Source of the DNA: an uncultured Balneolaceae bacterium
Lineage (GTDB): Bacteria > Bacteroidota > Rhodothermia > Balneolales > Balneolaceae
Direction: 5' to 3'
Assembly: GCA_938091655.1 (NCBI GenBank)
Contig: CALKOA010000023.1
Span: 10,662-42,661 of the forward strand
DNA length: 32,000 nucleotides
The position numbers were made by a program, and so were the translations under genes. The notes below the pieces were generated by a model that was not told the DNA's origin, ran no database searches, and worked only from the letters and a program-made list of their open reading frames with translations. This document shows positions 5,829 through 20,600 of this stretch, in pieces. Numbering within the stretch: position 1 is the stretch's first letter; each line of letters starts with the position of its first letter.

Positions 5829-6491
5829 ATGACCAAACAAATATTGGTCATGAACAACTTTCCCCTTGTCGAAATGCTCGCTTTTTTTCCCCGCTATTCA
5901 GAGGTGCACACTTTTGATTGGAGGCGCCGCTATGTGCGGCAGGTACGTCATATTAGATCCTGCCATACTAAGACGCTAGGAGGGGTGCAATATTCATTTT
6001 TTAGCATTGTTACTCAGCAGGGAGAGGCCATGGATGTACGTTTTAATCACGACGAATTATTTTGGGATGTAGTAGCGCTGCCTGGATCCGAGTTAGCTAT
6101 ACATAGCGAAGATGGCTCGCATTTTGTTATTGACCGAATACTGGTGCATCAACAGCGGCATAAGCATCAGCCTTCTCTTGCGCATCGTATGCGTCCTATC
6201 CGTTTTGAATGGCTTCCTCATGCCCAATGCGCGAGGCAGAGCCCTATTGAACATGCCAAGGTAGACCGCATGCATCCGTATCGTTTTTTAAAAGGAAAAA
6301 ATAGCTCTTATCAGGTTCATAGGATAGAAACGCGTCATCTAGAAGATGTTATGGTCACCCGGCATTTCCATTATGTTGTTGAGGATACCGAGCGGAGGTT
6401 CTATCATGTAGTATACATATTGGATCAGGGAGATTGGCGGTTTATACAAGAAGTAGATGAACAGTTCTTATTTCATCGGTCTAGTCCCTGA
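5829..6491 (+). CDS. Hypothetical His/Arg-rich protein, no domain recognised
   Basis: 220-aa ORF fills the gap between two minus-strand genes. Only a 60-aa antisense ORF competes with it. GC is clearly higher than in the surroundings. Divergent from the Y-family polymerase gene. Confidence 0.5.
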   Translation: MTKQILVMNNFPLVEMLAFFPRYSEVHTFDWRRRYVRQVRHIRSCHTKTLGGVQYSFFSIVTQQGEAMDVRFNHDELFWDVVALPGSELAIHSEDGSHFVIDRILVHQQRHKHQPSLAHRMRPIRFEWLPHAQCARQSPIEHAKVDRMHPYRFLKGKNSSYQVHRIETRHLEDVMVTRHFHYVVEDTERRFYHVVYILDQGDWRFIQEVDEQFLFHRSSP

Positions 6492-7245: not shown

Positions 7246-7908
7246 CTAATAGTAAATGCGAAGTACTATCCGTCTATTTTTTGCACGGTTTTCTATAATA
7301 TCTTGCCCAAATTCGTCAGTATGGGGTGCATTAGGTAAGGGTTGTGTCTCTGCATATCCTGATGCTTTGAGATTAGAGGCTTTGTAACCTTGACTGACAA
7401 GAAATTTAACTACCTCAGAGGCTCTTGCTACAGAAAGTTCCCAGTTAGAAGGAAACCTTAATGTATTAATAGGAACATTATCCGTATGCCCTTCGATATC
7501 TACTTTAAAATTGTAAAATGATAATCCATTTAGAGCATCAGATACTTTAGTAATGATACCCTCACCTGAGGGTAATAATTCGGCACCACCTGAGATATAA
7601 AGTGAACTACTATTAAATGTCATGACAATTTCTTTGGTAGTCAAATCAATGTTAACTAAGCCTTGTTCACGTTCGATAGTTAAAACAGAATCAAGATCAG
7701 CTTTAATTTCTGCTAACGGAGTTTTCTGTATTTCTGTGCCCGTTACTTCTGATCGCATTCCTTCTTTCATTTGATCCCATAGAGCTTGATCAGGGGTACT
7801 TGAAGCAATTAGAATAGCAAAAAAAGCTAGCAGTAATGTAATCATATCACTGTAAGTAAGAAGATATTCAAGATCTTCCTCTGCTTCTTCTATTTCATTG
7901 GCGCTCAT
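7246..7908 (-). CDS. MotB-family stator subunit with OmpA-like peptidoglycan-binding domain
   Basis: TM motif YSDMITLLLAFFAIL (Asp21, equivalent to E. coli MotB Asp32). C-terminal OmpA-like GHTDNVPI...SNWELSVARASEVVKFL...NRRIVLRI. Confidence 0.85.
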   Translation of the reverse strand: MSANEIEEAEEDLEYLLTYSDMITLLLAFFAILIASSTPDQALWDQMKEGMRSEVTGTEIQKTPLAEIKADLDSVLTIEREQGLVNIDLTTKEIVMTFNSSSLYISGGAELLPSGEGIITKVSDALNGLSFYNFKVDIEGHTDNVPINTLRFPSNWELSVARASEVVKFLVSQGYKASNLKASGYAETQPLPNAPHTDEFGQDIIENRAKNRRIVLRIYY

Positions 7909-7944
7909 AACAAACTTATTTAAATTGTTGTGTTATCAGAATAG

Positions 7945-8766
7945 TTAATCATCCTTACCTTTACTTTTTCCATCTTTCTTTTTGAAGTCTCGCTGTAAAA
8001 AAGTACTAAGTTTGTCCTGAATAAAAAATGCAGTTTTCTTTTCATTGATTAGAATGATTCCTTCAAGCATAAAAGTCTCTCTAAATCGATTTATAGAGGC
8101 TGAATTTTTTATTTTTTCAGCAACAGGATAAAAAATAAATCGGGAGAGTATAATACCATATAGTGTAGTCATCAAAGCAGCTGCAAGTCCAGGTCCCATG
8201 CTACTGGGATCGTCCAAATTACCAAGCATATCAATTAGCCCAAATAATGTCCCGAACATACCAAATGCAGGTGCCGCTCCACCCATCGCGCGAAGGACAT
8301 CAACAACAACCATTTGTCTAAAATAGGCTTCTTGGATGTGGTTAGTTCCGAATTGACGAATATCATCACTTGAATAATTGGTACTTAATAGAGAAAAAAG
8401 ATAACCTTCTAGATATCCAGTACGCTCTTCCTCTAATTTATCTAGTGCATTTACTCTATCTTTTCTTATCTCATCGTTCCACTCAACGATTGCTTCAAAA
8501 TCTTTTTGCAGAGATTTTTTATTTGCACCTGCTTGACTAAAAAAGTATCTCACTCCAGCTAAAGCCTTATTTACATACCTAGACTGGAAGGTAATGTAAG
8601 AGGCCATAAGTACACCCCCGATCACAATAACTAAACTAGGTATATTAAAAAATTGATTGCCTAAATCTTTAGTAAATTCGGTAACTTTAATTGTTTCAAT
8701 TACACCAAAAATTATCAGTGATAAGCTGATAACTGTACCGATCATTGAGCCAAATGAAAATTTCAT
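7945..8766 (-). CDS. MotA/PomA-family ion-channel stator subunit
   Basis: Four predicted TMs with a ~95-aa loop between TM2 and TM3 (MotA topology, not the 3-TM ExbB/TolQ topology). GGAAPAFGMFGTLFGLI and LYGIILSRFIFYPVAEKI carry the two conserved prolines. Confidence 0.85.
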   Translation of the reverse strand: MKFSFGSMIGTVISLSLIIFGVIETIKVTEFTKDLGNQFFNIPSLVIVIGGVLMASYITFQSRYVNKALAGVRYFFSQAGANKKSLQKDFEAIVEWNDEIRKDRVNALDKLEEERTGYLEGYLFSLLSTNYSSDDIRQFGTNHIQEAYFRQMVVVDVLRAMGGAAPAFGMFGTLFGLIDMLGNLDDPSSMGPGLAAALMTTLYGIILSRFIFYPVAEKIKNSASINRFRETFMLEGIILINEKKTAFFIQDKLSTFLQRDFKKKDGKSKGKDD

Positions 8767-8769
8767 TTA

Positions 8770-9384
8770 TTACTGTCCTCTGCGTATTTCTTGGATTAAA
8801 GTTTCTAACTCAGGAATGCTAGGTATAGGAATATTTGGATCCATTTGCACTGCTCGATTCCAATTGGCACGTGCTGCTGTGATATTTTCTAACATAAAAA
8901 AAATAGTTCCTTTAAGCGCGTAAGCGTCAGCTGTTTCTTGTATTTCGAGAGTTTTATCAATAAAATCTAATGATTGTCGATATTCCCCTAAATAAAACAA
9001 ATCTTGAGCTTTTCGATAGTTAGTAAGTAACATTTGTATATCTTTAGCTCTGCTCTGGACAATACTAGAATCAATTACTACAATAGAATCTTTATCCGCT
9101 GGTCGCATACCTCTTAAATCTAAATAAAACTGTTCTTTAGATGGATCTAGTTTAATTTGAATATTTGAACTCTCATTTAAATAATTGACGGTAATTACTT
9201 CATTTAGAGGACTAGCATCGCTTGTATTTACGGTATTGCGTTGAGTGTTGGTATTTACCGTACGTCGACTAGTATCTTCCAATCGTGAAGAAGTATTACT
9301 TTGAACTGGCTCAGTGGTCGCGCAGCTCAACGTAAATATAATTATGTAAGCTACCAAAAGTGCTGTGAGCGTAGTCTTAGTCAT
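8770..9384 (-). CDS. TPR-repeat lipoprotein
   Basis: MTKTTLTALLVAYIIIFTLSC signal with Cys when started at ATG 9384; the track start 9417 would overlap the upstream gene by 20 nt. C-terminal TPR-like YLGEYRQSLDFIDKTLEIQETADAYALKGTIFFMLENITAARANWNRAVQMDP. Stop lies 3 nt before the motA-like start. Confidence 0.6.
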   Translation of the reverse strand: MTKTTLTALLVAYIIIFTLSCATTEPVQSNTSSRLEDTSRRTVNTNTQRNTVNTSDASPLNEVITVNYLNESSNIQIKLDPSKEQFYLDLRGMRPADKDSIVVIDSSIVQSRAKDIQMLLTNYRKAQDLFYLGEYRQSLDFIDKTLEIQETADAYALKGTIFFMLENITAARANWNRAVQMDPNIPIPSIPELETLIQEIRRGQ

Positions 9385-9397
9385 AAGTACAATATGT

Positions 9398-10561
9398 TTA
9401 AAATCGTAGGACTGCATGGAATCCGAATCCAGTTTGTTTATAAGTTATACGGTCTTTGTTTGGTAATTTAATAGTTTCACCAGCTAGCATTAGATTCCCA
9501 AATACCGAAAGCCCAATATTTTTACTCAGATTAAATTGCACTCCAGGTTCTAACATAAACATTTCACCATCTTTGTTACCAAGAGGTAATTGCATATTTA
9601 GTTTGGAGTAGAATACTACTCGATATTCATCTATATCAGGATTCTTTTCTGATAAGGCTTGGTAATAAACTAAACCCAAATCAAACAGTGACATATCGAA
9701 TAGAGTTAGATCTCTATTTTGAGATCTAATAATATGATAACCTGCTGTAAAACCAATATAAGAACTATTCTCTAAATCTAAAGGCTGTCTGTAAGAAAAC
9801 GTTAAACTGAAATCTGTGAGAGCTTGTCGTAATAATGTATCGGCTTGATGTGAAAATGTAGTTGATGTGGAATCAGTGCCTGCGCCAGTACTATCATTAC
9901 TTGATGTTGTAGTCGAGTATTGATTCCTATACCAGCTATCGGAGGATCTAGTTGTAATTCCAAAACTGACCAATTTTTGTGAACCTTGATTCAATGTAGG
10001 TAAAACTATAGGTGGGTTTGATATAAATGAGTTACTCCAAACTACTTCCCGTGATTGCGGATTCATAACACGAATTCCAATGACAAGTCCTTCTGGTTCT
10101 CTCCTTTGCAAACTTAATTCTACTAAACCTTGTACACCATATTTATAAGAAATCTCTTCTAACATTTCAGGTGATACATCTGCTAAGGACCTTCCTTGCA
10201 TATTTAAGATTTGTAGTGTTGAATCGTTTCCTATAATCTTGAGTTTGTCATTTGGTTCTAGTTCTGGTGGTGATAATACGGTAAGTCCAGCATATTGGCG
10301 CATTGAATATTCGATCTCAGCCCGTAAATATTCTACTTCTTCATTTGTAAACCTTAGAGCGGAATAATTTATTTTATAGATCGCTATACGACGAACATTA
10401 ACGGGAAAGTCAGCCAGATTTGGATGTAACTGTTCTTGGATTTTTTCAATCATATATGGGTCACCTTGCTCATGGGTGTAAATCTGAGCAGAGACATAAA
10501 CTGTATTAAATAATCCTACAAAAGTTAGAACCAATAGTAGATTGAATAATCTTTTCATCAT
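9398..10561 (-). CDS. Exported protein: N-terminal alpha/beta domain, Ser/Thr-rich linker, C-terminal beta-rich domain (predicted outer-membrane protein)
   Basis: Signal peptide MMKRLFNLLLVLTFVGLFNTVYVSAQ. Linker TTTSSNDSTGAGTDSTSTTF. Alternating-hydrophobic strands, with C-terminal GFGFHAVLRF ending in Phe like an OMP beta-signal. Its ATG abuts the stop of the upstream gene. Confidence 0.5.
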   Translation of the reverse strand: MMKRLFNLLLVLTFVGLFNTVYVSAQIYTHEQGDPYMIEKIQEQLHPNLADFPVNVRRIAIYKINYSALRFTNEEVEYLRAEIEYSMRQYAGLTVLSPPELEPNDKLKIIGNDSTLQILNMQGRSLADVSPEMLEEISYKYGVQGLVELSLQRREPEGLVIGIRVMNPQSREVVWSNSFISNPPIVLPTLNQGSQKLVSFGITTRSSDSWYRNQYSTTTSSNDSTGAGTDSTSTTFSHQADTLLRQALTDFSLTFSYRQPLDLENSSYIGFTAGYHIIRSQNRDLTLFDMSLFDLGLVYYQALSEKNPDIDEYRVVFYSKLNMQLPLGNKDGEMFMLEPGVQFNLSKNIGLSVFGNLMLAGETIKLPNKDRITYKQTGFGFHAVLRF

Positions 10562-12490
10562 CTATGCTTCTGTTTTCATTTTACGACGTACTGCGTAAAG
10601 TATGGTTTTTTGAGCATCCTCTACTTCTGAATTAGTAGCCTCAGAAGGCATTTCCATTTCACTTAAAATAAGCTGCTGATCTCGTTTAGTACGAGACTTA
10701 AGTACTTTTTCTCTGACAGCAGCTGGAGCAGTGCGTAAAGCTAAAATAAGTGTTTCAGAAGGTATTTCGTCAAGTGCTGATTTTATTAATTCAATTTTTA
10801 CTTTTGGTAAATCATCAAATCCGATAAAATATTTTTTGATTTTTTTTGCTAATTCTAAATCTTGTTCTGCAATTGAAGCAACATATGCATCTTGTTCAGA
10901 AAGTGGCATAGTTTCAATTGTATTTAGTATAGTTTCTACACCATCTGCCGCAACATATTTCATGTCAGAGATAGCTAAAGCTTTTGTAGAAAAATGAGAG
11001 GCAACTTTTTTATAAACAGAGATAGGTATATTGTTAATTTTTCCCATTTTAAGGAGAACAGATATACGTTTGTCTTCATCCATTTTTTGTAAAACAATAC
11101 CAGCTCTCTCGCCAGCAACTTGAGCTAATAAAATAGAAACCATTTCATTAGATTCGTCTTTCATAAGGTGCAGAATTTGTTGATCTGTTAATTGATCAAC
11201 AAAATCAAACATACTAGTTTCTTTGTCTTCTGACTCTTTTGGGCTTTTGTATGTTGTAATACTACTGCGGAGGTTCTCAGTCTCATTTATTCTTTCTTCG
11301 AGGGAAAGGCTACCAGAATTATCAATACCATAACTAAGCATTTCATAAATATTGGAACTCATATGAGGTTTCAAAATATTGATCAGTTTCTCATCTACAC
11401 TAATAAGACTTTTTACGACTTTAGATGTACCCTGTTCTTCATCATTCGCAATCCATTCGCTAAACATGCTTGAGACAATTTTTGGCTTACTAATACACAT
11501 ATTTGCAATGAATGTTTTGTCTCCTTCAAATTTTGCCATTTCTTTAACAGTAGGACCTTTGCGCGAATATTCTTCATTTACTTCATTAACAATTGATTGT
11601 GGAATATTTAAAGTAGTTTTAGCTTTTCCTTTATCTTGTACAACCTCTTCATCATTTTTGGTCTTTGGCTTTCTTGAAACAGCAAATATTAAAACCATAA
11701 TGCATAAAATTGCTAGTGCGAGAATAATGTATAATAGGTGCTCTGGGTTGTTCCAGTCAATTCCTAAAAATAGTTTCTGTTCTCTTTCTTCTATTATGGT
11801 TTTGAAAACAGTATCAGGCAAAAGAGGTGAAATATCATTAACTAAATTCTCTTCTTTATCTTCGTTAGGCTGTTCTTGGATGTTATTGACGATATTGGTA
11901 CTGTCTAGCAATATCGCAGGGCTAGGTGCGGAAGGCTTTTTAATATCTTGTTCGAAAGCACGACTATTTCGTGGAAATACTTTTTTACTAACCGAGACGA
12001 TATCACCCCGAAATTCATCTGCATTGGCAATTAACGAGGCGGCTTCTTCTACGAAATCAACATCTTCGTCACTATACGAGGTATCTACGAGTACCTTAAT
12101 ATTAAGTCTTGTAAGTTGAAAACGTGCATCAAATCCAGACGCTTTTATACTGTCTTGTCCAGTAGGCCTGTTTGATTGAAGATTAGGTGGTATAAAAGGG
12201 AGTCCAGGCAGGTTTTCAATTTTAATATCTTCTTGTGGTTGTACGACTTGGTAGCCTTTAGGGACTAAAATACGCTCTAATGTGGCCTTAACATCTACAA
12301 TAAATGTTCCCTCTCGGTAGTAATCTGATAGTGCGTTATCTAAAACAACTTCATAGTATCGTTCGTATTTAGCCGCTTCTTCCTGCACATCTGCGGACGA
12401 ATTCTGTCCAGGCACTATTTGCCCGGTTACAATCATACTCTGAAGCGCAATAATGCCCGTAAGAGCAAGAATTTTAAGGTTTCCTGCCAT
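10562..12490 (-). CDS. Membrane protein with FliF-like periplasmic ring-building segment fused to FliG middle + C-terminal-like cytoplasmic domains
   Basis: Hydrophobic N-terminus (aa 6-22), ~230-aa periplasmic region, TM at aa 251-271. aa 124-172 (LTRLNIKVLVD...EFRGDIVSVSKKVF) resembles the end of the FliF ring-building region. aa 427-642 run parallel to FliG: FDFV..., ADGVETILN, DLELAKKIKKYFIGFDDL, ALRTAPAAVREKVLK...EVEDAQKTILYAVRR. Confidence 0.65.
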   Translation of the reverse strand: MAGNLKILALTGIIALQSMIVTGQIVPGQNSSADVQEEAAKYERYYEVVLDNALSDYYREGTFIVDVKATLERILVPKGYQVVQPQEDIKIENLPGLPFIPPNLQSNRPTGQDSIKASGFDARFQLTRLNIKVLVDTSYSDEDVDFVEEAASLIANADEFRGDIVSVSKKVFPRNSRAFEQDIKKPSAPSPAILLDSTNIVNNIQEQPNEDKEENLVNDISPLLPDTVFKTIIEEREQKLFLGIDWNNPEHLLYIILALAILCIMVLIFAVSRKPKTKNDEEVVQDKGKAKTTLNIPQSIVNEVNEEYSRKGPTVKEMAKFEGDKTFIANMCISKPKIVSSMFSEWIANDEEQGTSKVVKSLISVDEKLINILKPHMSSNIYEMLSYGIDNSGSLSLEERINETENLRSSITTYKSPKESEDKETSMFDFVDQLTDQQILHLMKDESNEMVSILLAQVAGERAGIVLQKMDEDKRISVLLKMGKINNIPISVYKKVASHFSTKALAISDMKYVAADGVETILNTIETMPLSEQDAYVASIAEQDLELAKKIKKYFIGFDDLPKVKIELIKSALDEIPSETLILALRTAPAAVREKVLKSRTKRDQQLILSEMEMPSEATNSEVEDAQKTILYAVRRKMKTEA

Positions 12491-12751
12491 GATTTAACCC
12501 CCGTAGAAGGTATTTTATTTAAGCCTAAACGTAGATGATGTTTACTACTTCGTTAAGTATGCGAAAATTTTTTGAGTTTTCCACATTTTGGTGCAAAATA
12601 AGTAGAATATTAATCTAATGATAATAATCTTGAAAATTATTGGTAATTAGATGTTTAGGATAAATTAAGTTTCTTGTAGTGTAATATTATAAAAAATTAT
12701 CCACACTTCGAACTACGTAAAAACACTTAAGTTGTACTTGTGCTGAATTGC

Positions 12752-13186
12752 TCATGACTTGGAAGAGAAGGCTAGCGCATAGATTTTCATTTGTTTAACC
12801 ATAGAAGCCAGGCCATTAGCTCTGGTTGGTGAGAGATGCTCATTCATTCCAATTTCAGTGATAAATGTAGGCTCTGTTTTTAAAATAGCGGTAGGGGTTT
12901 GATGGCTATACAAGCGTACCATTAATGCCACAAGTCCTTTAGTGATAGCGGCGTCACTGTCTGCCTCGAATACAACCCGCCCTTCATTGAGTTCAGCATG
13001 CAACCAAACTTGGCTTTGACAGCCTTTAACAATATTGCTATCTATTTTTTTTGAGCTATCGAGCGGGGGAAGTTTAGATCCAAGTTTAATGATATGCTTG
13101 TAGCGTTCAGTCCAATCTTCGAAAAGATTAAATTCTCTGACAATTCTATTTTGTGTCTCTTCAATACCTGTTGCGGGCTGCGACAT
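12752..13186 (-). CDS. sufE: Cysteine desulfuration (sulfur acceptor) protein SufE
   Basis: VKGCQSQVWL...ADSDAAITKGLVAL...HLSPTRANGL aligns closely with E. coli SufE, including the acceptor Cys. Confidence 0.9.
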   Translation of the reverse strand: MSQPATGIEETQNRIVREFNLFEDWTERYKHIIKLGSKLPPLDSSKKIDSNIVKGCQSQVWLHAELNEGRVVFEADSDAAITKGLVALMVRLYSHQTPTAILKTEPTFITEIGMNEHLSPTRANGLASMVKQMKIYALAFSSKS

Positions 13187-13194
13187 AGCGACGC

Positions 13195-14073
13195 TTAAAT
13201 TTCTTTTAACTCTAGCTTACCGACTGACTTTACAGTAGAAATTTTGTTGCTGGTATCGTCTTTTATGGGACTGAATGACTGATAAATTGTTTGGTATTCG
13301 TCAGAACCGGGTACTTTATATCGAAATAACTCAGAGACTGTTTTACCTTCAAACGCACTGCTTAGTGCTTGCTCTATCATGGCAATATCATCTGGATGTA
13401 TAACACTCTCCAATCCTTTTTCAAAAACATCGTCTGAGCTGAATCCAGTGACTTCTTCGAAAGCTTCATTGATGTATTTGCAATTGAACCCTGATTCATC
13501 CTTCGAAAACTTGAGTATGAATTCTTCTCTTTGTTTTAGTAATGATCCAAAATCGGTATTGAAAATAGCCTTAGCGCTTTCTTTTTTCTCTGTAACATCT
13601 CGTTGATACGACACCCAATGAGTAACCTCACCCTGTGCATTCATTAAGGGATGTATATCCCACTGGTTAATAAACTCTGAGCCATCTTTACGGTAGTTGA
13701 TGGTGTGACCAAAGAATGCCTGACCTTCGATTAATCGTCTTTTGAGACGTTCCAAAATAGCACGGTCAGTTTTCGCACCTTGAAGAATTCGTGGTGTTTT
13801 GCCAAGTACTTCTTGTTTTGTATATCCAGTCATTCTGGTAAAACCGTCGTTCACATAAACAATTCTTGGCCCAGGTTTTTCCAAGCTAAGTTCGGTGATT
13901 ATAATAGAGTCATAATCATTCCGAATTGCGCTTTCAAGCAAGTCTAACTGGTGTTTTAGTATTGCAATTTGATCAGCTTGTGACTGAAAAGCACCTTCTA
14001 GCCTTGCTTGGGCATCGGCGTCTTTGGCAAAATTCTTGATGTCGTTTATTTCAAATGGTTTGTCGTGCTTCAT
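13195..14073 (-). CDS. Stand-alone tandem PAS protein; first PAS is LOV-like but lacks the adduct-forming Cys
   Basis: N-terminal coiled-coil-like segment. PAS-1 IVYVNDGFTRMTGYTKQEVLGKTPRILQGAKTD...INYRKDGSEFIN...SYQRDVT. Second PAS at aa ~185-285. No output domain. Ends 8 nt before sufE. Confidence 0.8.
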   Translation of the reverse strand: MKHDKPFEINDIKNFAKDADAQARLEGAFQSQADQIAILKHQLDLLESAIRNDYDSIIITELSLEKPGPRIVYVNDGFTRMTGYTKQEVLGKTPRILQGAKTDRAILERLKRRLIEGQAFFGHTINYRKDGSEFINQWDIHPLMNAQGEVTHWVSYQRDVTEKKESAKAIFNTDFGSLLKQREEFILKFSKDESGFNCKYINEAFEEVTGFSSDDVFEKGLESVIHPDDIAMIEQALSSAFEGKTVSELFRYKVPGSDEYQTIYQSFSPIKDDTSNKISTVKSVGKLELKEI

Positions 14074-14526: not shown

Positions 14527-15540
14527 TTAATCCTTACTAAATAGTGACTGCGTGAATTCTTGAGCTGCTTCTACCACACTTTTTTTACCGGATTGAATCT
14601 CTATTACGAGCGCGTTTCGAACAGAGCTAGTGTGCCTAGCTTCCTGCAAATAGTGAAGCCAATAGTACTCACATAATTTTTGAAACCACTGTTCTTGTTG
14701 GAGTTTTCTTTTGTGCTCGAAGAATCCCTCTACTATAGCTTGTTCCAGAAATTTAGTTATGGCGTGCCAACTTTCAGTGATCCCAATGTCTTGGGTCGAA
14801 CTGACCCCTAAAGTCGGTACTTGGTAGTTTTTAAGGGAATGATTGATTAGTTGGGAAGTAGATCGTAACGATTGTAGTGTTTGTTGAGCTAATGATTTTG
14901 TCATTCCGTCCATTTTATTCACCAATAAAACATCTGCAAATTCCAATACTCCTCGTTTAATCCCTTGTAATTCATCTCCACTTCCAGGTTGGTTAAGCAA
15001 AACAAAACAGTCCACCATATTTGCTACAGCACCTTCACTTTGCCCAATTCCGACCGTTTCTACGAGAATAATGGAATAACCAGCTAGTTCACATAAGCTC
15101 ATGATGGATTGAGTAGCGTGGGTAACTCCACCGAGAACTTGTTGAGAAGGTGAAGGGCGTATGAAGGCATTTGGCTGGGTGCTCAACCGATCCATCCTAG
15201 TTTTATCACCTAGAATAGAACCGCCAGATAGTTGGCTGCTGGGATCAACAGCTAACACACATACTCGATGTCCTAGCGAGAGTAGGTGCATCCCTAAGGA
15301 TTCTATGTAACTACTTTTTCCTACCCCAGGAGGGCCAGATATTCCTATTCTTATCGTTGGCGCATGTTCGGTAGCATTGAGCCGTACCAAGCTTTCTTTA
15401 AGTAGGTTTCCAGCCCTATGCTGATCTTCTGCTCTAGTACTTTCAAGCAGTGTAATTGCCCGAGAAAGACTTCTTATTTGCCCATTTTTAATGGAATTTA
15501 TCCATTCCGAAATGGAAGTATGATCGCTGGGTTCCTTCAT
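14527..15540 (-). CDS. meaB: Methylmalonyl-CoA mutase-associated G-protein chaperone MeaB/ArgK
   Basis: P-loop GISGPPGVGKSS, VETVGIGQSE and LVNKMD motifs. Start is 3 nt after the mutase stop. Confidence 0.9.
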   Translation of the reverse strand: MKEPSDHTSISEWINSIKNGQIRSLSRAITLLESTRAEDQHRAGNLLKESLVRLNATEHAPTIRIGISGPPGVGKSSYIESLGMHLLSLGHRVCVLAVDPSSQLSGGSILGDKTRMDRLSTQPNAFIRPSPSQQVLGGVTHATQSIMSLCELAGYSIILVETVGIGQSEGAVANMVDCFVLLNQPGSGDELQGIKRGVLEFADVLLVNKMDGMTKSLAQQTLQSLRSTSQLINHSLKNYQVPTLGVSSTQDIGITESWHAITKFLEQAIVEGFFEHKRKLQQEQWFQKLCEYYWLHYLQEARHTSSVRNALVIEIQSGKKSVVEAAQEFTQSLFSKD

Positions 15541-15543
15541 ATA

Positions 15544-17625
15544 CTAATTCGAGGCTATTCGATCTTCTAACGCTGCAAGTATAGATTTTGCTGCTTCGGT
15601 TATGGGTGTTCCTGGGCCAAAAATGGCAGTTACTCCGTCTGCTTTTAATTGAGCGTAATCCTGTTCCGGTATCACACCGCCTGCCACTATGATCATATCG
15701 TCGATACCTTGCTTCGTAAGGCCCTCGATTAGTGCTGGTATCAATGCTTTATGTCCACCGGCTAAACTTGATACCCCTACCACATGCACATCATTTTCGA
15801 TGGCCTGTTTTACTACTTCATCCGGCGTGGAGAAAAGACTACCCATATCCACATCAAATCCTAAATCTGCAAATGCGGTGGCAATGACTTTTGCTCCTCT
15901 ATCATGCCCATCTTGTCCCATTTTAACAATAAGCATGCGAGGTTGGCGTCCGAGTGACCGTGCTAATGTTCGTACCTGTTCTTTTAATTGCTCAAAAGCT
16001 GGATCTTTTTCATACACTTTGCTATATACTCCCTTTATTGTAGAATGATGTGCATTATGTCGCCCCCAAACGTGTTCTAGCGCTTCAGAAATTTCACCAA
16101 TGGTAGCTCGTGCCCGAGCGGCTTCAATAGCGACGGATAAAATATTTTGCTGGGATGATTTTGCAGCTTCTACAAGAGCGGCTAAACGTGTTTCTACAAG
16201 TTCATTATCTCTATTCTGTTTAAGAAGAGTGAGGCGTTTTTCTTGGGACTGCCGGACTTTTGAGTGATCTATGTCACGAACATCCATGGGTGTTAGGTCA
16301 AGGCTCTTATATTTATTAACCCCCACAATAGTTTCAATTCCTTTGTCTATACGAGCTTGGCGTATGGCTGCGGAGGCTTCAATTTTCCTTTGGGGAAAGC
16401 CCTGTTCAATAGCTCGTGTCATTCCACCCATGGCCCTGATTTCTGCAATAAGTTCTTTGGCTTTGGTATACAGATCATGAGTGAGTGATTCCATGGCATA
16501 GGAGCCAGCAAAAGGGTCTATGATGTGAGTTAGATCGGTTTCTTCTTGTAATATAAGCTGGGTATTACGGGCAATCCGAGCGGCTGTTTCTGTAGGCAGG
16601 GAGAGCGCTTCGTCGTAACTATTGGTATGAAGAGATTGAGTCCCACCAAAAATAGCAGCGATAGCTTCGACCGTAGTTCGTACGATGTTATTTAAGGGGT
16701 CTTGTGCTGTTAATGACCAACCAGATGTTTGGCAATGGGTGCGTAACATTGTGGATTTGGGATTTTTTGGCTCAAATAAATCCTGCATTAGTTCCGCCCA
16801 CAATTCTCTCGCAGCGCGTAGTTTGGCAATCTCTGTGAGCATATTCATTCCAATACCAAAAAAGAAGGAAAGCCGAGGAGCAAACTCGTCTACATCAAGA
16901 CCTCGATCAACAGCTGTTCCAACATATTCTAGTCCATTTGCAATAGTGAAAGCTAATTCTAGCACTTCATTCGCACCTGCTTCTTGCATATGGTAGCCTG
17001 AAATAGAAATCGTATTGAATTTAGGCATATACTGGCGTGTATAGTCAATAATATCGGAGACCAAACGCATAGACGGGGTAGGGGGATATATATAGGTATT
17101 GCGAACCATGAATTCTTTTAGAATATCATTTTGAATGGTTCCACTGAGTTGATCTTGGGAAACGCCTTGTTCCTCAGCTGCTACAATATATGCCGCCATA
17201 ATGGGGATTACAGCACCGTTCATCGTCATTGATACGGACATTTTATCTAGCGGAATCCCATTGAACAGTTGTTTCATATCTTCCACTGAATCAATAGCTA
17301 CACCAGCTTTTCCTACATCACCCACTACCCTTGGATGATCTGAATCATAACCTCTATGTGTGGCTAAATCAAAAGCTACACTCAGGCCTTTTTGTCCATT
17401 TTCAAGTGCATTCCGGTAGAAAGCATTGGACTCTTCAGCGGTTGAAAATCCAGCATACTGCCGAATAGTCCAAGGCCTACCAGTATACATGCTACTGTAT
17501 GGTCCCATGCGATAGGGAAATTCGCCTGGATTTTGTGGGTTAATACGTCTTTTAATGAGGTCATCAGGCGTATATAAAGCCTTTTTTTGGAGTTGTTCGG
17601 CATCTTGGGACAGAAATTCACTCAT
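15544..17625 (-). CDS. scpA: Methylmalonyl-CoA mutase, single-chain form with C-terminal B12-binding domain
   Basis: [33 protein letters not shown] and RIARNTQ, plus the B12-binding [24 protein letters not shown]...GVSSLAGGH. Confidence 0.95.
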
Positions 17626-17684
17626 CGAATACGAATTAAGAGGTTTTGATGGGTAGAATGTGCAATAAACTAAGAAGTAGCCTT

Positions 17685-20600
17685 TTATGCTACATCTTCC
17701 ATTCGAACTCCTACCAATCGACTAACACCGGTTTCAGGCATCGTGACACCATACATCATCTCTGCCTTACTCATGGTTTTTTTATTGTGCGTAATAATGA
17801 TGAACTGAGTGTCATTTGAAAACTCTTTTATCATTTTAGCAAATCGTTCGATATTTGCATCATCTAAAGGAGCATCAACCTCATCCAATACACAAAAAGG
17901 TGAGGGTTTTACTAAATAGATAGCAAATAGTAATGCGATGGCGGTGAGTGTTTTTTCCCCTCCTGAAAGTTGGGAAATACCCGAGGGTCGCTTTCCCCTA
18001 GGTTGAGCTTTAATTTCAATACGAGCTTCTAGTGGATCTTCGGCATCTTGCTCTATAATCAAATCACAAAAGTCGTCAGCAAAGAACAATGTTTTAAACA
18101 CACGTTGAAAATTATTTCGAACTTCTTCAAAGGTTAAGTTAAAGCGCTCAGTGGCCGTGGAATTGATTTCATCGATGGTTTCAAGAAGTTGAATTTCGGC
18201 TTTCGTTAAATCTTCAATTTGTTCTTCATAGAAGTTTAATCGTTTGCTTTCCTCTTCATATTCTTCAATGGCAAGCGGGTTAACTTCTCCCAGGCTGTTC
18301 ACTTTTTGTTTGAGCCATGTAATTCGCTGTTTCATTTCCTCTGTACTTTTATCCTCAGGCAAAGGGTCACTTTCAAGCTGCTTAATGAGTAACCCGTAAT
18401 TTTCCCATACATGGTCGCGAAGGCTTTCACTTTGTAAATCCATTTTTTCCTTGGCCATATGTAAATGATGAACTAGTTCAATGTTCACTTCTTTTTGACG
18501 TCGTATTTCTTTGAGCTGCTTTTCTATTTCGTTAATGCTCCCCCGTACTATTGCAGCAGCTTCTTGTGTTTTAGATAAAGCCTGATCGGCCTCTTCTTTT
18601 TGGATAGTCGATTGCGCTAGTTTTTCTTTCCAGCTAGTTACTTGTTCGGTGTTTAAATTGATTTGCTGACTTGCCTTACCAATGCGTTCCTCACGATGCT
18701 CTATGCGTTGTTCAACTCCATTTATACTAATCTGAGCACGTTGGATTTCACGTTCATGATTCTCAATCTTATTGGTAATATCCTGATGTTTAAGTTGGGC
18801 ATCGTTATACCGGCTTTGTGCACCTGAACGCTGTTCTTCTAATGATTCTAATAAACTTTTTTGTTGTTCAAGTTTATGGTTATAGCCTTCAATATTTTGT
18901 TCGATTTCTTTTTGGGAGGGTGCTATGTTAGCAAGTTCTTGTTGGGCATTTCCCTCATTGGATTGAAGAGAGTTTTTTCGGTTAACCCGGTCGGTAATAT
19001 TCTTTTGGTAAACTTGTACCTTTGAACTCATAGAGTGTTTTTGCTGCTCTAATGTGCGAATCTGTTGTTCGAGATCTTTTAGTGCTTTATTGAGTACGGG
19101 TAAATCAATCTGTGCGCTTTTGTTTTCAATCTGTTCTAGATAGTCGGTGAGCTTCTGGAGCTCTTTTTGAATGTTAAGCTGCTGTTTCTCTAAACGCTCA
19201 ATCTTAGTTTTTAGGCTTACCCGCATACCTGCGTGGCTACTCTTACTGCCAGATGTATAAAAAGAGTGTCCACTACGAACATCTCCTTGTAAATTCACCG
19301 AGCTCCATTCTTTCTTTAGCTCTGTTTTATTCATATGCTCGACGTCCTCAAATACAAGAACATTACCCAATAAGAGTTGCTTTAGGGCAGAGTACTTTGC
19401 TTTACAATCCACATGATGAAACAAGCTACCATCAGCAACATCATAGGTAGCGGCAAGCTGTTGTAGAGGAATAAACGTAGCCAAGCCTTTTTTGTGTTCT
19501 TTTAACAATTTAGCAGCCGCAAGTGCTTCTTCCATTGTATCCACGACTAAATAATTTAGCATAGGACCAAGTGCCGACTCCAAAGCAACAGCATACGTCT
19601 CATCGGTTGAAAAAACATCACTGACGGTCGTCATGCTTTTAAAATTAAATCGCTGCTCTTCTAATAGATATTGGACACTCGATGGAAAAGCCTCATTTGA
19701 AGCAGCTAAATCTTGAAGAAGTTGCGACTCTGACTCGGCTGATGCTAAATCACTGCTAAGACTGCGAATCTGATCCTTCGTCTCGTTCTGAGTATGAGCG
19801 AATTGTTCTTTTTTTGAACGAGCCTCTTCTAACGACTTTTCCTGTTGGCTTCGATCGCTGAATATTCTTTCTAGCTGTTCATCTACCTTACGTTGTTGCT
19901 CAGTAATGGTAGAAATTTCATTATTCAAGTTAGAAATCTCAGACTCAATGCGTTCTAGATCACCTTCGGTATTTTCGAGTTTGGACTCAATTTTAATTCG
20001 TTTGGATTGAAGCTGAGTCAATTCATTTTTAGCTGCACTAATCTGAACTTCAAGCTCATATATTTCGTGGCGAACTTTGCTGTATTGCTGTTGGGTTTGA
20101 GTGTAAATGACTCTTGAATCTTCTAAACTTTTCTCAGATCGTGCTTGTTCTGTAGCAAATTCCACTAGTTTTTCCTGACTGTGTGTTCGAACTTGCTGTA
20201 ATTCTGCTAAATCCTTACTACCCTGTTCGATATCCCTTTTATATTCACTTAGAACTTTTTCTTCGCTTTCAATTTTTTGCTGGGCAATACGAATTTGGGT
20301 GGTAGCTTCTTGAACAGCTTCTGCTAGGGATTGTACTCTGCGTTGAGCTTCGGACTGTGCTCGTTCTTTTTCCACGAGGGCTTTTCGGGCCTGCTCATCT
20401 TCGGCTTCAAGTGTATTTAGTTTTTGCTGGAGCTGTGTTTTTTCAAGCTCTGCGGAGTTCACGCGTTCAATTAGTGGATTTAGCTCTTGTTGAATCCGCT
20501 CGTACTCATGCAAGCTAAGCGCTTTATCAAGTTTTTCTAGTTCTTCTTTATATCCTTTTGACTTAATCGCTTTCTCTGCTTGGATTTCTAGGCTTCGTGT

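What the first reader, a model, noticed from the sequence alone, without database searches (positions are those of the whole stretch)
7246..12490. Orphan rotor-stator-like operon (FliF/FliG-fusion + predicted OMP + TPR lipoprotein + MotA + MotB) with no other flagellar genes in the window
Five co-oriented minus-strand genes run from 12490 to 7246 and look like one expression unit. The gaps are 0 nt (the TAG of gene 1 abuts the ATG of gene 2 at 10561/10562), 13 nt (or a 20-nt overlap, depending on start choice), 3 nt and 36 nt. A 261-bp AT-rich non-coding region precedes them. Products as I read them: (1) a two-TM inner-membrane protein with a FliF-like ring-building segment in the periplasm and FliG middle + C-terminal-like domains in the cytoplasm; (2) a signal-peptide protein ending in a beta-rich domain with a C-terminal Phe; (3) a TPR lipoprotein; (4) a 4-TM MotA/PomA-type subunit; (5) a MotB-type subunit with an OmpA-like peptidoglycan anchor. 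That gives a rotor-like element, its stator and predicted outer-membrane partners, so every envelope layer is represented. None of the export-gate, rod, hook, FliM/FliN or filament genes that normally surround fliF/fliG/motAB are present. The flanks are sufE and an SRAP gene. In canonical flagella FliF and FliG are separate polypeptides. I know of no characterised system with this gene set. It could be a minimal ion-driven rotary or force-transducing machine acting on the outer membrane or cell surface.
Basis: partly seen in the sequence, partly recalled or inferred. Interest (0 to 1): 0.9.

Follow-up and report, generated by a model that had tools for sequence, protein, structure and literature searches.

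The report
Flagellum-less FliF–FliG rotor with MotAB stator
A conserved five-gene operon encodes a natural fusion of the two flagellar rotor proteins (FliF ring domain plus FliG) next to a flagellar-type MotA/MotB ion motor, an outer-membrane protein and a TPR lipoprotein, with no other flagellar genes nearby, so it looks like a stand-alone rotary motor of unknown output and bears on how the flagellar motor arose.

Summary
Gene 1 has a signal-like segment, a periplasmic domain, one strong TM helix, and FliG middle and C-terminal domains above Pfam cut-offs. The periplasmic domain's AlphaFold model (pLDDT 87) matches only FliF MS-ring RBM3/beta-collar structures in its top 18 PDB hits. Genes 4 and 5 are a PomA/PomB-type flagellar stator with every channel residue conserved. 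Gene 3 is a TPR lipoprotein. Gene 2 is a secreted protein with weak beta-barrel signals.

The cassette is syntenic in 26 of 26 complete Balneolaceae loci. It also occurs in cultured, non-motile Gracilimonas tropica, in an Elusimicrobiota MAG and in four unnamed contigs. A variant occurs in a Bacteroidales MAG and one other contig. At least 123 clusters (50% identity) share the fusion architecture. dN/dS is 0.01-0.26.

The FliM-binding EHPQR motif is lost and no FliM/N, export gate, rod or hook gene lies within 10 kb in any locus. I found no published description. The closest precedents are the chlamydial FliF–FliG fusion and engineered fusions.

Best reading: an autonomous, unidirectional rotor–stator machine with unknown output. 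The host's genome-wide flagellar inventory could not be checked.

The parts
12491..12751 (-). 261-nt AT-rich 5' non-coding region upstream of gene 1 (presumed promoter region)
   Evidence: Sequence read. No Rfam match at E<=1. The sigma-70 scan is at chance level. The promoter role is inferred, not shown.
10562..12490 (-). Gene 1: FliF(RBM3/collar)-TM-FliG fusion protein, 642 aa
   Evidence: ORF. Pfam FliG_M and FliG_C above cut-off. PDB FliG matches. Identical protein P0001 on a 2.39-Mb Balneolaceae contig. dN/dS 0.02-0.12.
12419..12490 (-). Gene 1 residues 1-24: signal-peptide-like or first hydrophobic segment
   Evidence: KD 1.71 over residues 5-23. Orthologues end it with AYA-Q, AHA-Q or AQA-Q. 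Cleavage was not tested.
11966..12418 (-). Gene 1 residues 25-175: periplasmic ring-building domain resembling FliF RBM3 plus beta-collar, with an invariant LPGLP loop (residues 94-98)
   Evidence: AF2 model has pLDDT 87 and strand order alpha-beta-[insert]-beta-alpha-beta. The Foldseek top 18 PDB hits are all FliF MS-ring. The domain is present in 123 of 124 full-length family representatives.
11678..11734 (-). Gene 1 residues 253-271: transmembrane helix, preceded by the conserved LGIDWNNP motif
   Evidence: KD 3.22. L242, G243, I244, D245, W246, N247 and P249 are invariant in A1.
11231..11518 (-). Gene 1 residues ~325-420: conserved cytoplasmic region, possibly FliG_N-like
   Evidence: The phmmer alignment to full-length FliG 3hjl spans query 332-637 and FliG 19-319. 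Precomputed PF14842 appears on many relatives. The family profile's best stretch covers only the M and C domains, so this is inconclusive.
10967..11182 (-). Gene 1 residues 437-508: FliG middle domain, with the EHPQ motif replaced by ESNE
   Evidence: PF14841 at 33.6 bits against a cut-off of 25. The motif columns read E-S-D/N-E across 33 cassettes.
10574..10876 (-). Gene 1 residues 539-639: FliG C-terminal domain with the torque helix (K595, R603, E611)
   Evidence: PF01706 at 69.3 bits against a cut-off of 23.3. R603 is kept in 33/33 cassettes, K595 in 32/33 and E611 in 31/33.
9398..10561 (-). Gene 2: secreted 387-aa protein with a conserved periplasmic N-domain (residues ~30-190), a variable Ser/Thr/Gly linker and a beta-rich C-domain ending in an invariant Phe (putative outer-membrane protein)
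   Evidence: ORF. Alignment A5 of 14 orthologues has F387 invariant. Only weak Pfam hints exist: OMP_b-brl at 0.05-0.12, and FlgO at 0.0094 in one member. No PDB hit by profile. dN/dS 0.04-0.15.
8770..9417 (-). Gene 3: TPR lipoprotein, 215 aa (alternative start at 9384)
   Evidence: TPR_1 at 4.7e-8 and TPR_2 at 1.8e-6. Hydrophobic leader ending FTLSC. Its C-terminal TPR module matches the C-terminus of the ~1000-aa protein in the variant clusters at E~1e-8.
7945..8766 (-). Gene 4: MotA/PomA-type stator A subunit, 273 aa
   Evidence: PF01618 at 3e-19. Best NCBIfam matches are MotP at 7.6e-39 and PomA at 7.8e-36, against TolQ at 1.7e-3. Best PDB match is PomA 8brd at 2.5e-28, against TolQ at 8e-3. 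Channel Pro and Thr residues are conserved in 32-33 of 33 cassettes.
7246..7908 (-). Gene 5: MotB/PomB-type stator B subunit, 220 aa, with TM Asp21, plug and OmpA-like peptidoglycan-binding domain
   Evidence: MotB_plug at 3.9e-11 and OmpA at 8.3e-13. PDB MotB and PomB matches. D21 is kept in 33/33 cassettes.

Best explanation
The operon encodes a self-contained, non-flagellar rotor–stator machine built from flagellar-motor parts.

Gene 1 is a natural fusion that is colinear with the C-terminal half of FliF (RBM3/beta-collar ring domain, then the membrane helix) followed by FliG. It is predicted [inferred] to oligomerise through the RBM3-like domain into a ring in the inner membrane. That ring would carry a crown of FliG C-domains on its cytoplasmic face.

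Genes 4 and 5 form a PomAB-like 5:2 ion channel anchored to peptidoglycan. Ion flow (H+ or Na+) turns the MotA pentamer, which pushes on the conserved torque helix of the FliG domain and so drives the ring [inferred by homology].

The FliM-binding motif is gone and no FliM or FliN gene is present, so the motor should be unidirectional and free of chemotactic control.

The TPR lipoprotein (gene 3) and the secreted beta-rich protein (gene 2) most likely form the periplasmic and outer-membrane partner. This could be a stator scaffold or bushing of the kind MotX/PflA/PflB and FlgO/FlgP provide in complex flagellar motors. Alternatively it is the element that receives the mechanical output through the invariant LPGLP tip of the collar [speculative].

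The output is not a flagellum. What is moved at the envelope or cell surface is unknown.
For: Shown:
- FliG_M and FliG_C score above Pfam cut-offs. Gene 1 hits PDB FliG at 1.8e-16, and the family profile hits at 3.5e-42.
- The periplasmic domain model has pLDDT 87. Its top 18 Foldseek PDB hits are all FliF RBM3/collar rings, followed further down by SpoIIIAG and PrgK.
- The MotA is 25 orders of magnitude closer to PomA/MotP than to TolQ/ExbB.
- Across 33 cassettes, MotB Asp, both MotA prolines and two of the three pore threonines are kept in all 33; the third threonine is kept in 32. FliG R603 is kept in 33/33, K595 in 32/33 and E611 in 31/33. The MotA R88-equivalent is basic in 31/33.
- All five genes have dN/dS of 0.01-0.26, as low as or lower than the flanking housekeeping genes.
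- Gene order is invariant in 26/26 complete Balneolaceae loci and in 6 distant loci with unrelated flanks.
- 123 of 124 full-length representatives at 50% identity keep the RBM3-like domain, and 120 have an internal TM helix.
- The cassette is present in non-motile G. tropica, which lacks flagellar-assembly KOs (PMC4642740; PMC9909488).
- No other flagellar Pfam family lies within ±10 kb in any annotated locus.

From the literature: engineered FliF–FliG fusions form rings in membranes (10.1101/2023.02.06.527414).
Against: - No experiment or multimer model shows a ring or rotation.
- The FliF similarity is structural only, with TM-scores of 0.44-0.57 and high rmsd; no FliF sequence hit was found.
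- The MotA residue equivalent to PomA E96 / MotA E98 is not conserved (D in 7/33, S in 12/33). The FliG D288 and R297 equivalents are Ser and Pro. So only part of the canonical charge interface is kept.
- The roles of genes 2 and 3 are guesses. FlgO similarity is below threshold and seen in one member only.
- The host genome's flagellar inventory was not obtainable. One Balneola species is reported as flagellated (PMC5167729), and Aliifodinibius genomes carry many flagellar genes.
- The cassette seems patchy among cultured Balneolaceae: only G. tropica appeared among named type strains.
Confidence: 0.6

Rival explanations
1. A non-rotary trans-envelope force transducer analogous to Tol-Pal or Ton. 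In this reading the gene 1 protein, as a monomer or small oligomer, plays the part of TolA/TonB. It is engaged through its cytoplasmic FliG domain rather than through its TM helix, and it transmits stator-derived force to the outer-membrane protein and TPR lipoprotein. The purpose would be envelope integrity, division or surface transport.
For: The gene set parallels tolQ-tolR-tolA-tolB-pal-cpoB: a 5:2 motor, a bitopic inner-membrane protein, outer-membrane components and a TPR protein. The 5:2 motors are known to power many outer-membrane processes, and tol-pal loci are reported as not identifiable in Bacteroidetes (PMC12204202). Gene 1 carries a long, variable acidic linker between the periplasmic domain and the TM helix.
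Against: The periplasmic domain matches a fold known for building 30-34-mer rings (FliF RBM3/collar, SpoIIIAG), not TolA/TonB. The stator is of the flagellar type, not the TolQ/ExbB type. The FliG torque-helix charges and the MFXF-like hinge (FIGF) are kept, which fits tangential pushing on a ring. The cassette appears patchy among cultured Balneolaceae, which is unexpected for a housekeeping envelope system.
Confidence: 0.2
2. An accessory or alternative rotor–stator set that works within a canonical flagellum encoded elsewhere in the host genome.
For: Balneola vulgaris is listed as flagellated (PMC5167729). Aliifodinibius genomes carry flgA/B/C, fliG, fliI, fliS and motAB. The host's genome-wide inventory could not be made. 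Many bacteria carry second stator sets.
Against: The cassette occurs in non-motile G. tropica, which is reported to have no flagellar-assembly KOs (PMC4642740; PMC9909488), and a variant occurs in a Bacteroidales MAG. Gene 1 lacks RBM1/RBM2 (no YscJ_FliF Pfam hit) and the FliM-binding EHPQR motif, so it could neither house an export gate in the usual way nor bind a C-ring. No flagellar gene lies within 10 kb in any of 11 annotated contexts.
Confidence: 0.08
3. A decaying remnant of an ancestral flagellar regulon with no present function.
For: Authors of a Balneolaceae comparative study read scattered flagellar KOs as a 'broken pathway' left from a motile ancestor (PMC9909488).
Against: All five genes have dN/dS of 0.01-0.26. 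ORFs are intact and gene order is invariant over sequence divergence down to 22-27% identity and across lineages labelled Balneolaceae, Bacteroidales and Elusimicrobiota. Catalytic and channel residues are kept in 32-33 of 33 cassettes. The fusion architecture is itself a conserved innovation.
Confidence: 0.02
4. A Zorya-like MotAB-based anti-phage defence system.
For: Gene 5 matches ZorB models in PADLOC at 1.5e-17, which reflects generic MotB homology.
Against: There is no ZorA, ZorC, ZorD or ZorE match for any of the other four proteins. MotA lacks the long ZorA tail at 273 aa. The cassette sits in a stable chromosomal context next to housekeeping genes and is vertically conserved in Balneolaceae, not in defence islands.
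Confidence: 0.02

Closest known systems
Bacterial flagellar motor core: MS-ring (FliF), FliG ring and MotAB/PomAB stator units
   Same: Gene 1 has a FliF RBM3/beta-collar-like periplasmic domain, a TM helix, and FliG middle and C-terminal domains with a torque helix. The stator is a PomA/PomB-type 5:2 unit with plug, TM Asp and a peptidoglycan-binding domain. The order of domains along gene 1 equals FliF C-terminal half followed by FliG.
   Different: FliF and FliG are one polypeptide. RBM1 and RBM2 are absent. The EHPQR FliM-binding motif is lost. No FliM/N, export gate, ATPase, rod, hook, P/L-ring or filament genes are nearby. The partners are an uncharacterised secreted beta-rich protein and a TPR lipoprotein. 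It occurs in a non-motile species.
Chlamydiaceae FliF–FliG fusion protein (Bergeron 2016, PMC4768692)
   Same: It is a natural fusion of a shortened FliF (ring-building motifs plus TM helix) to a FliG-like cytoplasmic domain, found in bacteria without flagella.
   Different: The chlamydial protein is ~330 aa. It is described as keeping RBM2 plus one unassigned RBM and only a FliG middle-domain homologue. It has no FliG_C torque domain and no adjacent MotAB, and it is thought to work with the injectisome. The protein here is 642 aa, has an RBM3/collar-like domain and FliG M and C domains, and is always followed by motAB. The two were not compared directly here.
Engineered or spontaneous FliF–FliG fusions of Salmonella and Vibrio (PDB 8z4d/8z4g; 10.1101/2023.02.06.527414)
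   Same: FliF is covalently linked to FliG. These fusions assemble into MS-ring-like rings in membranes. Chain 8z4d_1 is among both the sequence hits and the fold hits.
   Different: They are laboratory constructs of full-length FliF (RBM1-3, two TM helices) inside a complete flagellar system, not a natural minimal protein in a five-gene operon.
Periplasmic scaffolds of high-torque flagellar motors (MotX/MotY T-ring, FlgO/FlgP/FlgT H-ring, PflA/PflB TPR proteins)
   Same: TPR or Sel1-type and outer-membrane-associated proteins are encoded to act with PomAB-type stators. One gene 2 orthologue gives a sub-threshold FlgO hit at 0.0094.
   Different: No significant similarity to any of these proteins was found. 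The resemblance is one of role only and is unproven.
Other 5:2 ion-driven motors acting on the outer membrane (TolQRA-Pal, ExbBD-TonB, GldLM/PorLM, AglRQS, ZorAB)
   Same: In each, an inner-membrane 5:2 motor is coupled to a protein that spans the periplasm and to outer-membrane partners.
   Different: In those systems the transducer binds the motor through TM helices or is the B subunit itself. Here the coupling element is a FliG domain on the cytoplasmic side, as in flagella. MotA here is far closer to PomA than to TolQ.

Membership tests
FliG (flagellar rotor/switch protein) | FliG C-terminal domain with torque helix (PF01706) | tested here: met
   69.3 bits against a cut-off of 23.3, residues 539-639. 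Aligns to Salmonella FliG 103-318. R281, K264 and D289 equivalents are conserved in 31-33 of 33 cassettes.
FliG (flagellar rotor/switch protein) | FliG middle domain (PF14841) | tested here: met
   33.6 bits against a cut-off of 25, residues 437-508.
FliG (flagellar rotor/switch protein) | EHPQR motif that binds FliM | tested here: not met
   EHPQ aligns to ESNE in the window protein and to E-S-D/N-E across 33 cassettes. No fliM or fliN gene is near.
FliG (flagellar rotor/switch protein) | FliG N-terminal domain that binds the FliF C-terminal peptide | tested here: inconclusive
   PF14842 scores 20.3 bits, below the cut-off of 25, and maps onto the M region. The 3hjl alignment extends to FliG residue 19. 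The family profile's best stretch covers M and C only.
FliG (flagellar rotor/switch protein) | Equivalog-level score and a free cytoplasmic protein of ~330 aa | tested here: not met
   TIGR00207 scores 90.5 bits against a cut-off of 226.7. The protein is 642 aa with a periplasmic domain and a TM helix.
FliF (MS-ring protein) | RBM3 plus beta-collar fold | tested here: met
   The template-free AF2 model has pLDDT 87. Foldseek top 18 PDB hits are all FliF RBM3/S-ring, at E 3.5e-7 to 1.6e-5, probability 1.00 and TM-score 0.44-0.57.
FliF (MS-ring protein) | SctJ-like RBM1/RBM2 region (Pfam YscJ_FliF) | tested here: not met
   No YscJ_FliF hit in Pfam or NCBIfam at E<=0.1. The periplasmic region holds only one ~150-aa domain.
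FliF (MS-ring protein) | Sequence-level homology to FliF | tested here: not met
   Neither the single sequence nor the family profile matches any FliF chain in the PDB through its periplasmic region. The fusion construct 8z4d_1 is hit only through its FliG part.
FliF (MS-ring protein) | Assembly into a ~33-34-mer ring | not testable with these tools
   No multimer prediction or experiment was available.
MotA/PomA flagellar stator A subunit | MotA_ExbB channel domain, four TM helices, large TM2-TM3 cytoplasmic loop, conserved pore Pro and Thr | tested here: met
   PF01618 at 3e-19. Aligns over 221 residues to PomA 8brd at 2.5e-28. P166, T173, T201 and P214 are kept in 33/33 cassettes and T200 in 32/33.
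MotA/PomA flagellar stator A subunit | Charged pair that contacts FliG (E. coli R90/E98; PomA R88/E96) | tested here: inconclusive
   The R88 equivalent is R or K in 31/33 cassettes. The E96 equivalent is Asp in the window protein but variable in the family (D 7, S 12, others 14).
MotA/PomA flagellar stator A subunit | NCBIfam equivalog cut-off for MotP, PomA or MotA | tested here: not met
   The best score is 133.3 bits against a cut-off of 394 for MotP. This is a divergent branch of the flagellar-type stators.
MotB/PomB stator B subunit | N-terminal TM helix with the ion-binding Asp, plug helix and OmpA-like peptidoglycan-binding domain | tested here: met
   MotB_plug at 42.8 bits and OmpA at 49 bits, both above cut-off. 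D21 is kept in 33/33 cassettes. PDB MotB and PomB hits reach 1.5e-18.
Tol-Pal / Ton systems | TolQ/ExbB-type A subunit, and TolA/TonB, TolB and Pal components | tested here: not met
   TolQ scores 1.7e-3 and ExbB 0.013, against 1e-36 to 1e-39 for PomA/MotP. No TolA, TonB, TolB or Pal family hit was found in genes 1-3.
Zorya anti-phage system | ZorA with a long tail plus ZorC/ZorD (or ZorE) | tested here: not met
   PADLOC matches only ZorB models, for gene 5. Nothing matches genes 1-4.
Flagellar H-ring protein FlgO | PF17680 match in gene 2 | tested here: inconclusive
   16.2 bits against a cut-off of 22.6 in the Elusimicrobiota orthologue only. None in the window protein or the other 12 orthologues of A5, nor in two further distant orthologues (L038, L039).
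Outer-membrane beta-barrel protein | Signal peptide, beta-barrel domain and C-terminal aromatic residue | tested here: inconclusive
   Signal-like leader present. F387 is invariant in 14/14 orthologues. OMP_b-brl hits are only 0.05-0.12.
Chlamydial FliF–FliG fusion | ~330-aa protein with RBM2-like region and FliG_M-like tail | not tested
   Known only from PMC4768692. No chlamydial sequence was compared here. The domain content as published differs.

The most novel reading that the evidence does not exclude
The cassette is a previously unrecognised class of bacterial rotary nanomachine. It would be a minimal MS-ring/FliG rotor turned by PomAB-type stators, working without any type III export apparatus or axial filament, and delivering torque to an outer-membrane or surface structure.

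In the variant clusters that structure might be a DUF4402 / PapD-like / ~1000-aa-protein fibre system.

The machine could either descend from, or represent a surviving relative of, the rotor–stator module that existed before it was joined to the flagellar export apparatus.
Probability: 0.35. Interest if true: 0.95.

Novelty: new variant of a known kind. Interest (0 to 1): 0.85.

Why it matters
If the machine works as inferred, the torque-generating module of the flagellum (rotor ring plus stator) can exist and be selected for on its own, without secretion apparatus, rod, hook or filament. [quoted passage not shown] It also bears on scenarios for the modular origin of the flagellum.

It would add a new member to the growing list of 5:2 ion-driven motors that energise the outer membrane. 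It would be the first to use a FliG interface outside flagella.

It is experimentally approachable, because the cassette is present in a cultured type strain, Gracilimonas tropica DSM 19535.

There is also a practical consequence. Genome surveys that infer motility from motA/motB/fliG hits will mis-score these organisms. One example is the Trichodesmium-microbiome study that includes the Balneolaceae lineage HXMU1420-13, which carries this cassette.

Tried and rejected
- The first structure job, on residues 1-250 with 20 close homologues, gave pLDDT 43 and was discarded. It was repeated on residues 25-200 with 74 diverse family members.
- The profile search with the wider alignment A3 in the search for homologous proteins returned essentially the same close relatives. 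It did not widen the taxonomy beyond adding G. tropica.
- The genome-contig scan depends on two exact peptide patterns, so it found only close Balneolaceae. It missed G. tropica and the distant members.
- I tried to learn the organisms behind distant representatives through cluster look-ups. Most have no name.
- I tried to find the cassette in Balneola vulgaris or other type strains using the G. tropica protein as query. None was visible among the 120 listed hits, which is not conclusive.
- Gene 2 gave nothing significant by Pfam, NCBIfam or PDB profile.
- The variant-cluster proteins (DUF4402 and the 279-aa protein) gave no PDB sequence hits. The chaperone–usher idea rests on a single PapD_N hit at 0.013 and is only a lead.
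- A riboswitch in the 5' region was rejected: no Rfam hit at E<=1.
- Sigma-70 promoter and intrinsic-terminator scans were at chance level.
- Zorya membership was rejected.
- Five literature searches for a prior description found none, and DUF4402 is mentioned in no held paper. The library lacks most subscription-journal papers.
- The flagellar inventory of the host genome could not be made with the tools allowed.

Full report
**1. Observation**

The ORF list shows five co-oriented minus-strand ORFs at 12490-10562 (642 aa), 10561-9398 (387 aa), 9417-8770 (215 aa), 8766-7945 (273 aa) and 7908-7246 (220 aa).
- Genes 1 and 2 are 0 nt apart.
- Genes 2 and 3 overlap by 20 nt, or are 13 nt apart with the Met12 start of gene 3.
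- Genes 3 and 4 are 3 nt apart.
- Genes 4 and 5 are 36 nt apart.

A 261-nt AT-rich non-coding stretch precedes gene 1. GC drops to 0.33-0.37 across the cassette. The flanks are SufE and a PAS-PAS protein upstream and an SRAP peptidase downstream.

The remainder of the 32-kb window is housekeeping. It includes ribosomal proteins S2, S9 and L13, EF-Ts, UMP kinase, RRF, SMC, methylmalonyl-CoA mutase/MeaB, aconitase, CdaA, DHPS, a Y-family polymerase and a T9SS-sorted CotH protein. It contains no other flagellar family.

Consensus promoter and terminator scans are at chance level and no Rfam family matches the 5' region. Co-transcription is therefore inferred from spacing and synteny, not shown.

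The window is 99.2% identical to a 2.39-Mb contig of assembly GCA_038144155.1. Related sequences carry Balneolaceae / 'Balneola sp.' labels.

**2. What the five proteins are**

*Gene 1, cytoplasmic half.* Pfam finds FliG_M (residues 437-508, 33.6 bits against a cut-off of 25) and FliG_C (539-639, 69.3 bits against 23.3). phmmer against the PDB aligns residues 424-640 to Salmonella FliG 103-318 at 1.8e-16. A profile of 52 family members hits FliG crystal structures at 3.5e-42.

*Gene 1, topology.* Hydropathy shows a weak N-terminal hydrophobic segment and one strong TM helix at 253-271. Residues 25-250 are therefore periplasmic and the FliG part is cytoplasmic.

*Gene 1, periplasmic domain.* It has no sequence-detectable relatives outside the family. 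A first AlphaFold run with a shallow alignment failed at pLDDT 43. A second run, on residues 25-200 with 74 diverse family members and no templates, gave pLDDT 87. The model reads alpha, long beta, a 30-residue insert, long beta, alpha, beta. That is the ring-building-motif topology with an extended hairpin.

In Foldseek against the PDB, the top 18 hits are all FliF MS-ring RBM3/beta-collar chains from Salmonella and Vibrio. They score E 3.5e-7 to 1.6e-5, probability 1.00 and TM-score 0.44-0.57. The next hits are OsmC/Ohr at 1e-3. PrgK and SpoIIIAG, the other known ring builders, follow further down.

Gene 1 is therefore colinear with the C-terminal half of FliF (RBM3/collar, then the TM helix) followed by FliG. 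It is a natural FliF–FliG fusion that lacks RBM1 and RBM2.

*Gene 4.* It is a flagellar-type stator A subunit. The best NCBIfam models are MotP (7.6e-39) and PomA (7.8e-36), against TolQ at 1.7e-3. The best PDB chains are PomA 8brd (2.5e-28) and other flagellar MotA chains, against TolQ at 8e-3.

*Gene 5.* It has the MotB plug, the TM aspartate and an OmpA-like peptidoglycan-binding domain.

*Gene 3.* It is a TPR protein with a lipoprotein-like leader.

*Gene 2.* It has a signal-like leader, a strongly conserved ~160-residue N-domain, a variable Ser/Thr/Gly linker and a beta-rich C-domain ending in an invariant Phe. Only sub-threshold hints exist: OMP_b-brl at 0.05-0.12, and FlgO at 0.0094 in one orthologue. 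A PDB profile search found nothing. Its outer-membrane location is plausible but weakly supported.

**3. Conservation and distribution**

A scan of one genome per GTDB species returned 28 Balneolaceae-type loci. tblastn shows all five genes, in the same order, in all 26 loci that are not cut by a contig end, while the flanks differ.

The exhaustive profile search of 1.84 billion cluster representatives gave 126 hits below 1e-30. Of the 124 listed representatives of at least 550 aa, 123 carry the RBM3-like domain and 120 an internal TM helix. The two 331-aa hits I checked are fragments on ~1.3-kb contigs.

Eight distant members were examined in their contigs:
- The same five-gene order is found in cultured Gracilimonas tropica DSM 19535 (46% identity), in an Elusimicrobiota MAG (27%) and in four unnamed contigs.
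- A Bacteroidales MAG and one other contig carry a variant. In it the fusion gene and motAB are preceded by DUF4402 proteins, a 279-281-aa protein with a faint PapD_N hit, and a ~1000-aa protein. The C-terminal 75 residues of that large protein match the TPR module of gene 3 at E~1e-8.

Pairwise dN/dS is 0.01-0.26 for all five genes, as low as or lower than for the neighbouring sufE and SRAP genes.

Functional residues across 33 cassettes:
- MotB Asp21 is kept in 33/33.
- MotA P166, T173, T201 and P214 are kept in 33/33, and T200 in 32/33.
- In the FliG part, R603 (R281 equivalent) is kept in 33/33, K595 (K264) in 32/33 and E611 (D289) in 31/33.
- The MotA residue equivalent to PomA R88 is basic in 31/33.
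- The E96/E98 equivalent is not conserved.
- FliG D288 and R297 are replaced by Ser and Pro.
- The FliM-binding EHPQ motif reads E-S-D/N-E.

**4. Is the host flagellated?**

The indirect evidence is as follows:
- No flagellar family lies within ±10 kb in any of the 11 annotated contexts.
- G. tropica is described as non-motile (PMC4642740). It is listed among Balneolaceae type strains without flagellar-assembly KOs (PMC9909488).
- A variant sits in a contig labelled Bacteroidales. From my own knowledge, that order has no flagellated members.

On the other side:
- Balneola vulgaris is scored as flagellated (PMC5167729).
- Aliifodinibius genomes contain many flagellar genes.
- Neither was shown to carry the cassette. 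Among named type strains only G. tropica appeared.

**5. Mechanism**

*Shown:* homology of the parts, their topology, the conserved residues, gene linkage and purifying selection.

*Inferred by homology:* the RBM3/collar-like domain oligomerises into a ring, as it does in FliF (33-34-mers) and SpoIIIAG. Engineered FliF–FliG fusions do form rings in membranes (10.1101/2023.02.06.527414). The ring presents FliG C-domains to peptidoglycan-anchored PomAB-like 5:2 units. Ion flow through MotA Thr/Pro and MotB Asp21 rotates the MotA pentamer, which pushes the torque helix (R603/E611) and turns the ring. Without the EHPQR motif or FliM/N the motor should be unidirectional.

*Speculative:* the TPR lipoprotein and gene 2 protein form a stator scaffold, bushing or output element contacting the invariant LPGLP loop at the collar tip. 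This would parallel MotX/PflA/PflB and FlgO/FlgP in complex flagellar motors. The ion could be Na+, because the host is marine and the PomA Thr158/185/186 equivalents are kept. This was not tested.

The output of the machine is unknown.

**6. Rivals**

- A Tol-Pal-like linear force transducer (confidence 0.2) fits the gene set: a motor, a bitopic inner-membrane protein, an outer-membrane protein and a TPR protein. It also fits the reported lack of recognisable tol-pal loci in Bacteroidetes (PMC12204202). It does not fit the ring-building fold, the flagellar-type stator or the retained torque helix.
- An accessory of a canonical flagellum (0.08) is disfavoured by G. tropica, the Bacteroidales variant, and the missing RBM1/2 and FliM motif.
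- A decaying relic (0.02) is contradicted by the selection and conservation data.
- A Zorya-like defence system (0.02) fails: only the generic MotB/ZorB similarity is found.

**7. Comparison with what is known**

It works like the torque-generating core of the flagellar motor. It is not a member of the FliG or FliF equivalog families:
- TIGR00207 scores 90.5 against a cut-off of 226.7.
- There is no YscJ_FliF hit.
- The EHPQR motif is lost.
- The two proteins are fused.

The MotA and MotB are divergent members of the flagellar-type stator group (TGI4-like in the terms of PMC12505986).

The nearest published precedent for the fusion is the ~330-aa chlamydial FliF–FliG protein (PMC4768692). That protein has different domains and no MotAB partner.

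Five full-text searches found no description of this cassette. Databases name gene 1 'FliG C-terminal domain-containing protein', 'flagellar motor switch protein FliG' or 'hypothetical protein'. [quoted passage not shown] The library lacks most subscription journals, so a prior report cannot be excluded.

**8. Verdict**

The finding is a conserved and apparently uncharacterised stand-alone FliF/FliG–MotAB module. It is widespread: at least 123 clusters at 50% identity, carrying Balneolaceae, Bacteroidales and Elusimicrobiota labels.

I rate it a new variant of a known kind (an ion-driven rotor–stator motor). I give a 0.35 chance that it is a categorically new rotary machine with a non-flagellar output. 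Interest is 0.85.

Noticed in passing
window 25839-28538 (+): An 899-aa protein with a CotH kinase domain, a lamin-tail domain and a Por_Secre_tail (type IX secretion C-terminal sorting domain). The host therefore probably has a T9SS. Por_Secre_tail proteins also neighbour the cassette in L039 and L040.
   Followed up: partly
L037 4645-9403 and L040 3420-9966: In the variant clusters (a Bacteroidales MAG and one other contig), the fusion gene and motAB are preceded by three kinds of protein. These are DUF4402 proteins, a 279-281-aa protein with a faint PapD_N hit (0.013), and a 966-996-aa protein whose C-terminal ~75 residues match the gene 3 TPR module (E~1e-8). A possible link to a secreted fibre system is unproven. 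There were no PDB hits, and DUF4402 appears in no held paper.
   Followed up: partly
L003/L020-L023, L025, L028-L030, ~15080-18035 (+): A conserved ~975-aa protein with no Pfam hit lies directly after motB in one Balneolaceae subclade. It is absent from the window and is not homologous to the large protein of the variant clusters.
   Followed up: partly
window 17685-21203 (-): The SMC gene is a single 1172-aa ORF in the window. In the 99.2%-identical assembly GCA_038144155.1 it is called as three ORFs (78, 521 and 599 aa). The 21.9-kb alignment has 4 gap openings, so indel errors or strain differences are likely.
   Followed up: partly
window 5829-6491 (+): A 220-aa His/Arg-rich ORF between the Y-family polymerase and the SRAP gene has no Pfam match. 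It is also called as a gene in the related assembly.
   Followed up: no
window 12752-14073 (-) and the Balneolaceae loci: A SufE gene and a double-PAS protein lie upstream of the cassette in most Balneolaceae loci, at distances from 0.3 to about 8 kb. This probably reflects general synteny rather than a functional link.
   Followed up: no
literature (PMC5167729 against PMC9909488): Balneola vulgaris is listed as motile by flagella, yet a BlastKOALA comparison reports no flagellar-assembly genes for the genus Balneola. I could not determine whether B. vulgaris carries the cassette.
   Followed up: partly
L003/L021 (Balneolaceae HXMU1420-13) and preprint 10.64898/2026.08.28.744692: A metagenome study infers motility of MAG groups from MotA/MotB and flagellar genes. 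One of its enriched groups, HXMU1420-13, carries this cassette, so such inferences can be misled.
   Followed up: no
L041 10000-10783 (+): In one distant member the cassette's motA is split into 142-aa and 137-aa ORFs, either a frameshift or an assembly error. The same contig also has an unrelated ExbB-like pair with DUF3450 upstream.
   Followed up: no
window 10800-10830 region of gene 1 (residues 553-561): The FliG MFXF hinge motif aligns to F-I-G-F, with F555, G557 and F558 invariant in the Balneolaceae alignment A1. This suggests that the flexible linkage of the torque subdomain is retained.
   Followed up: no
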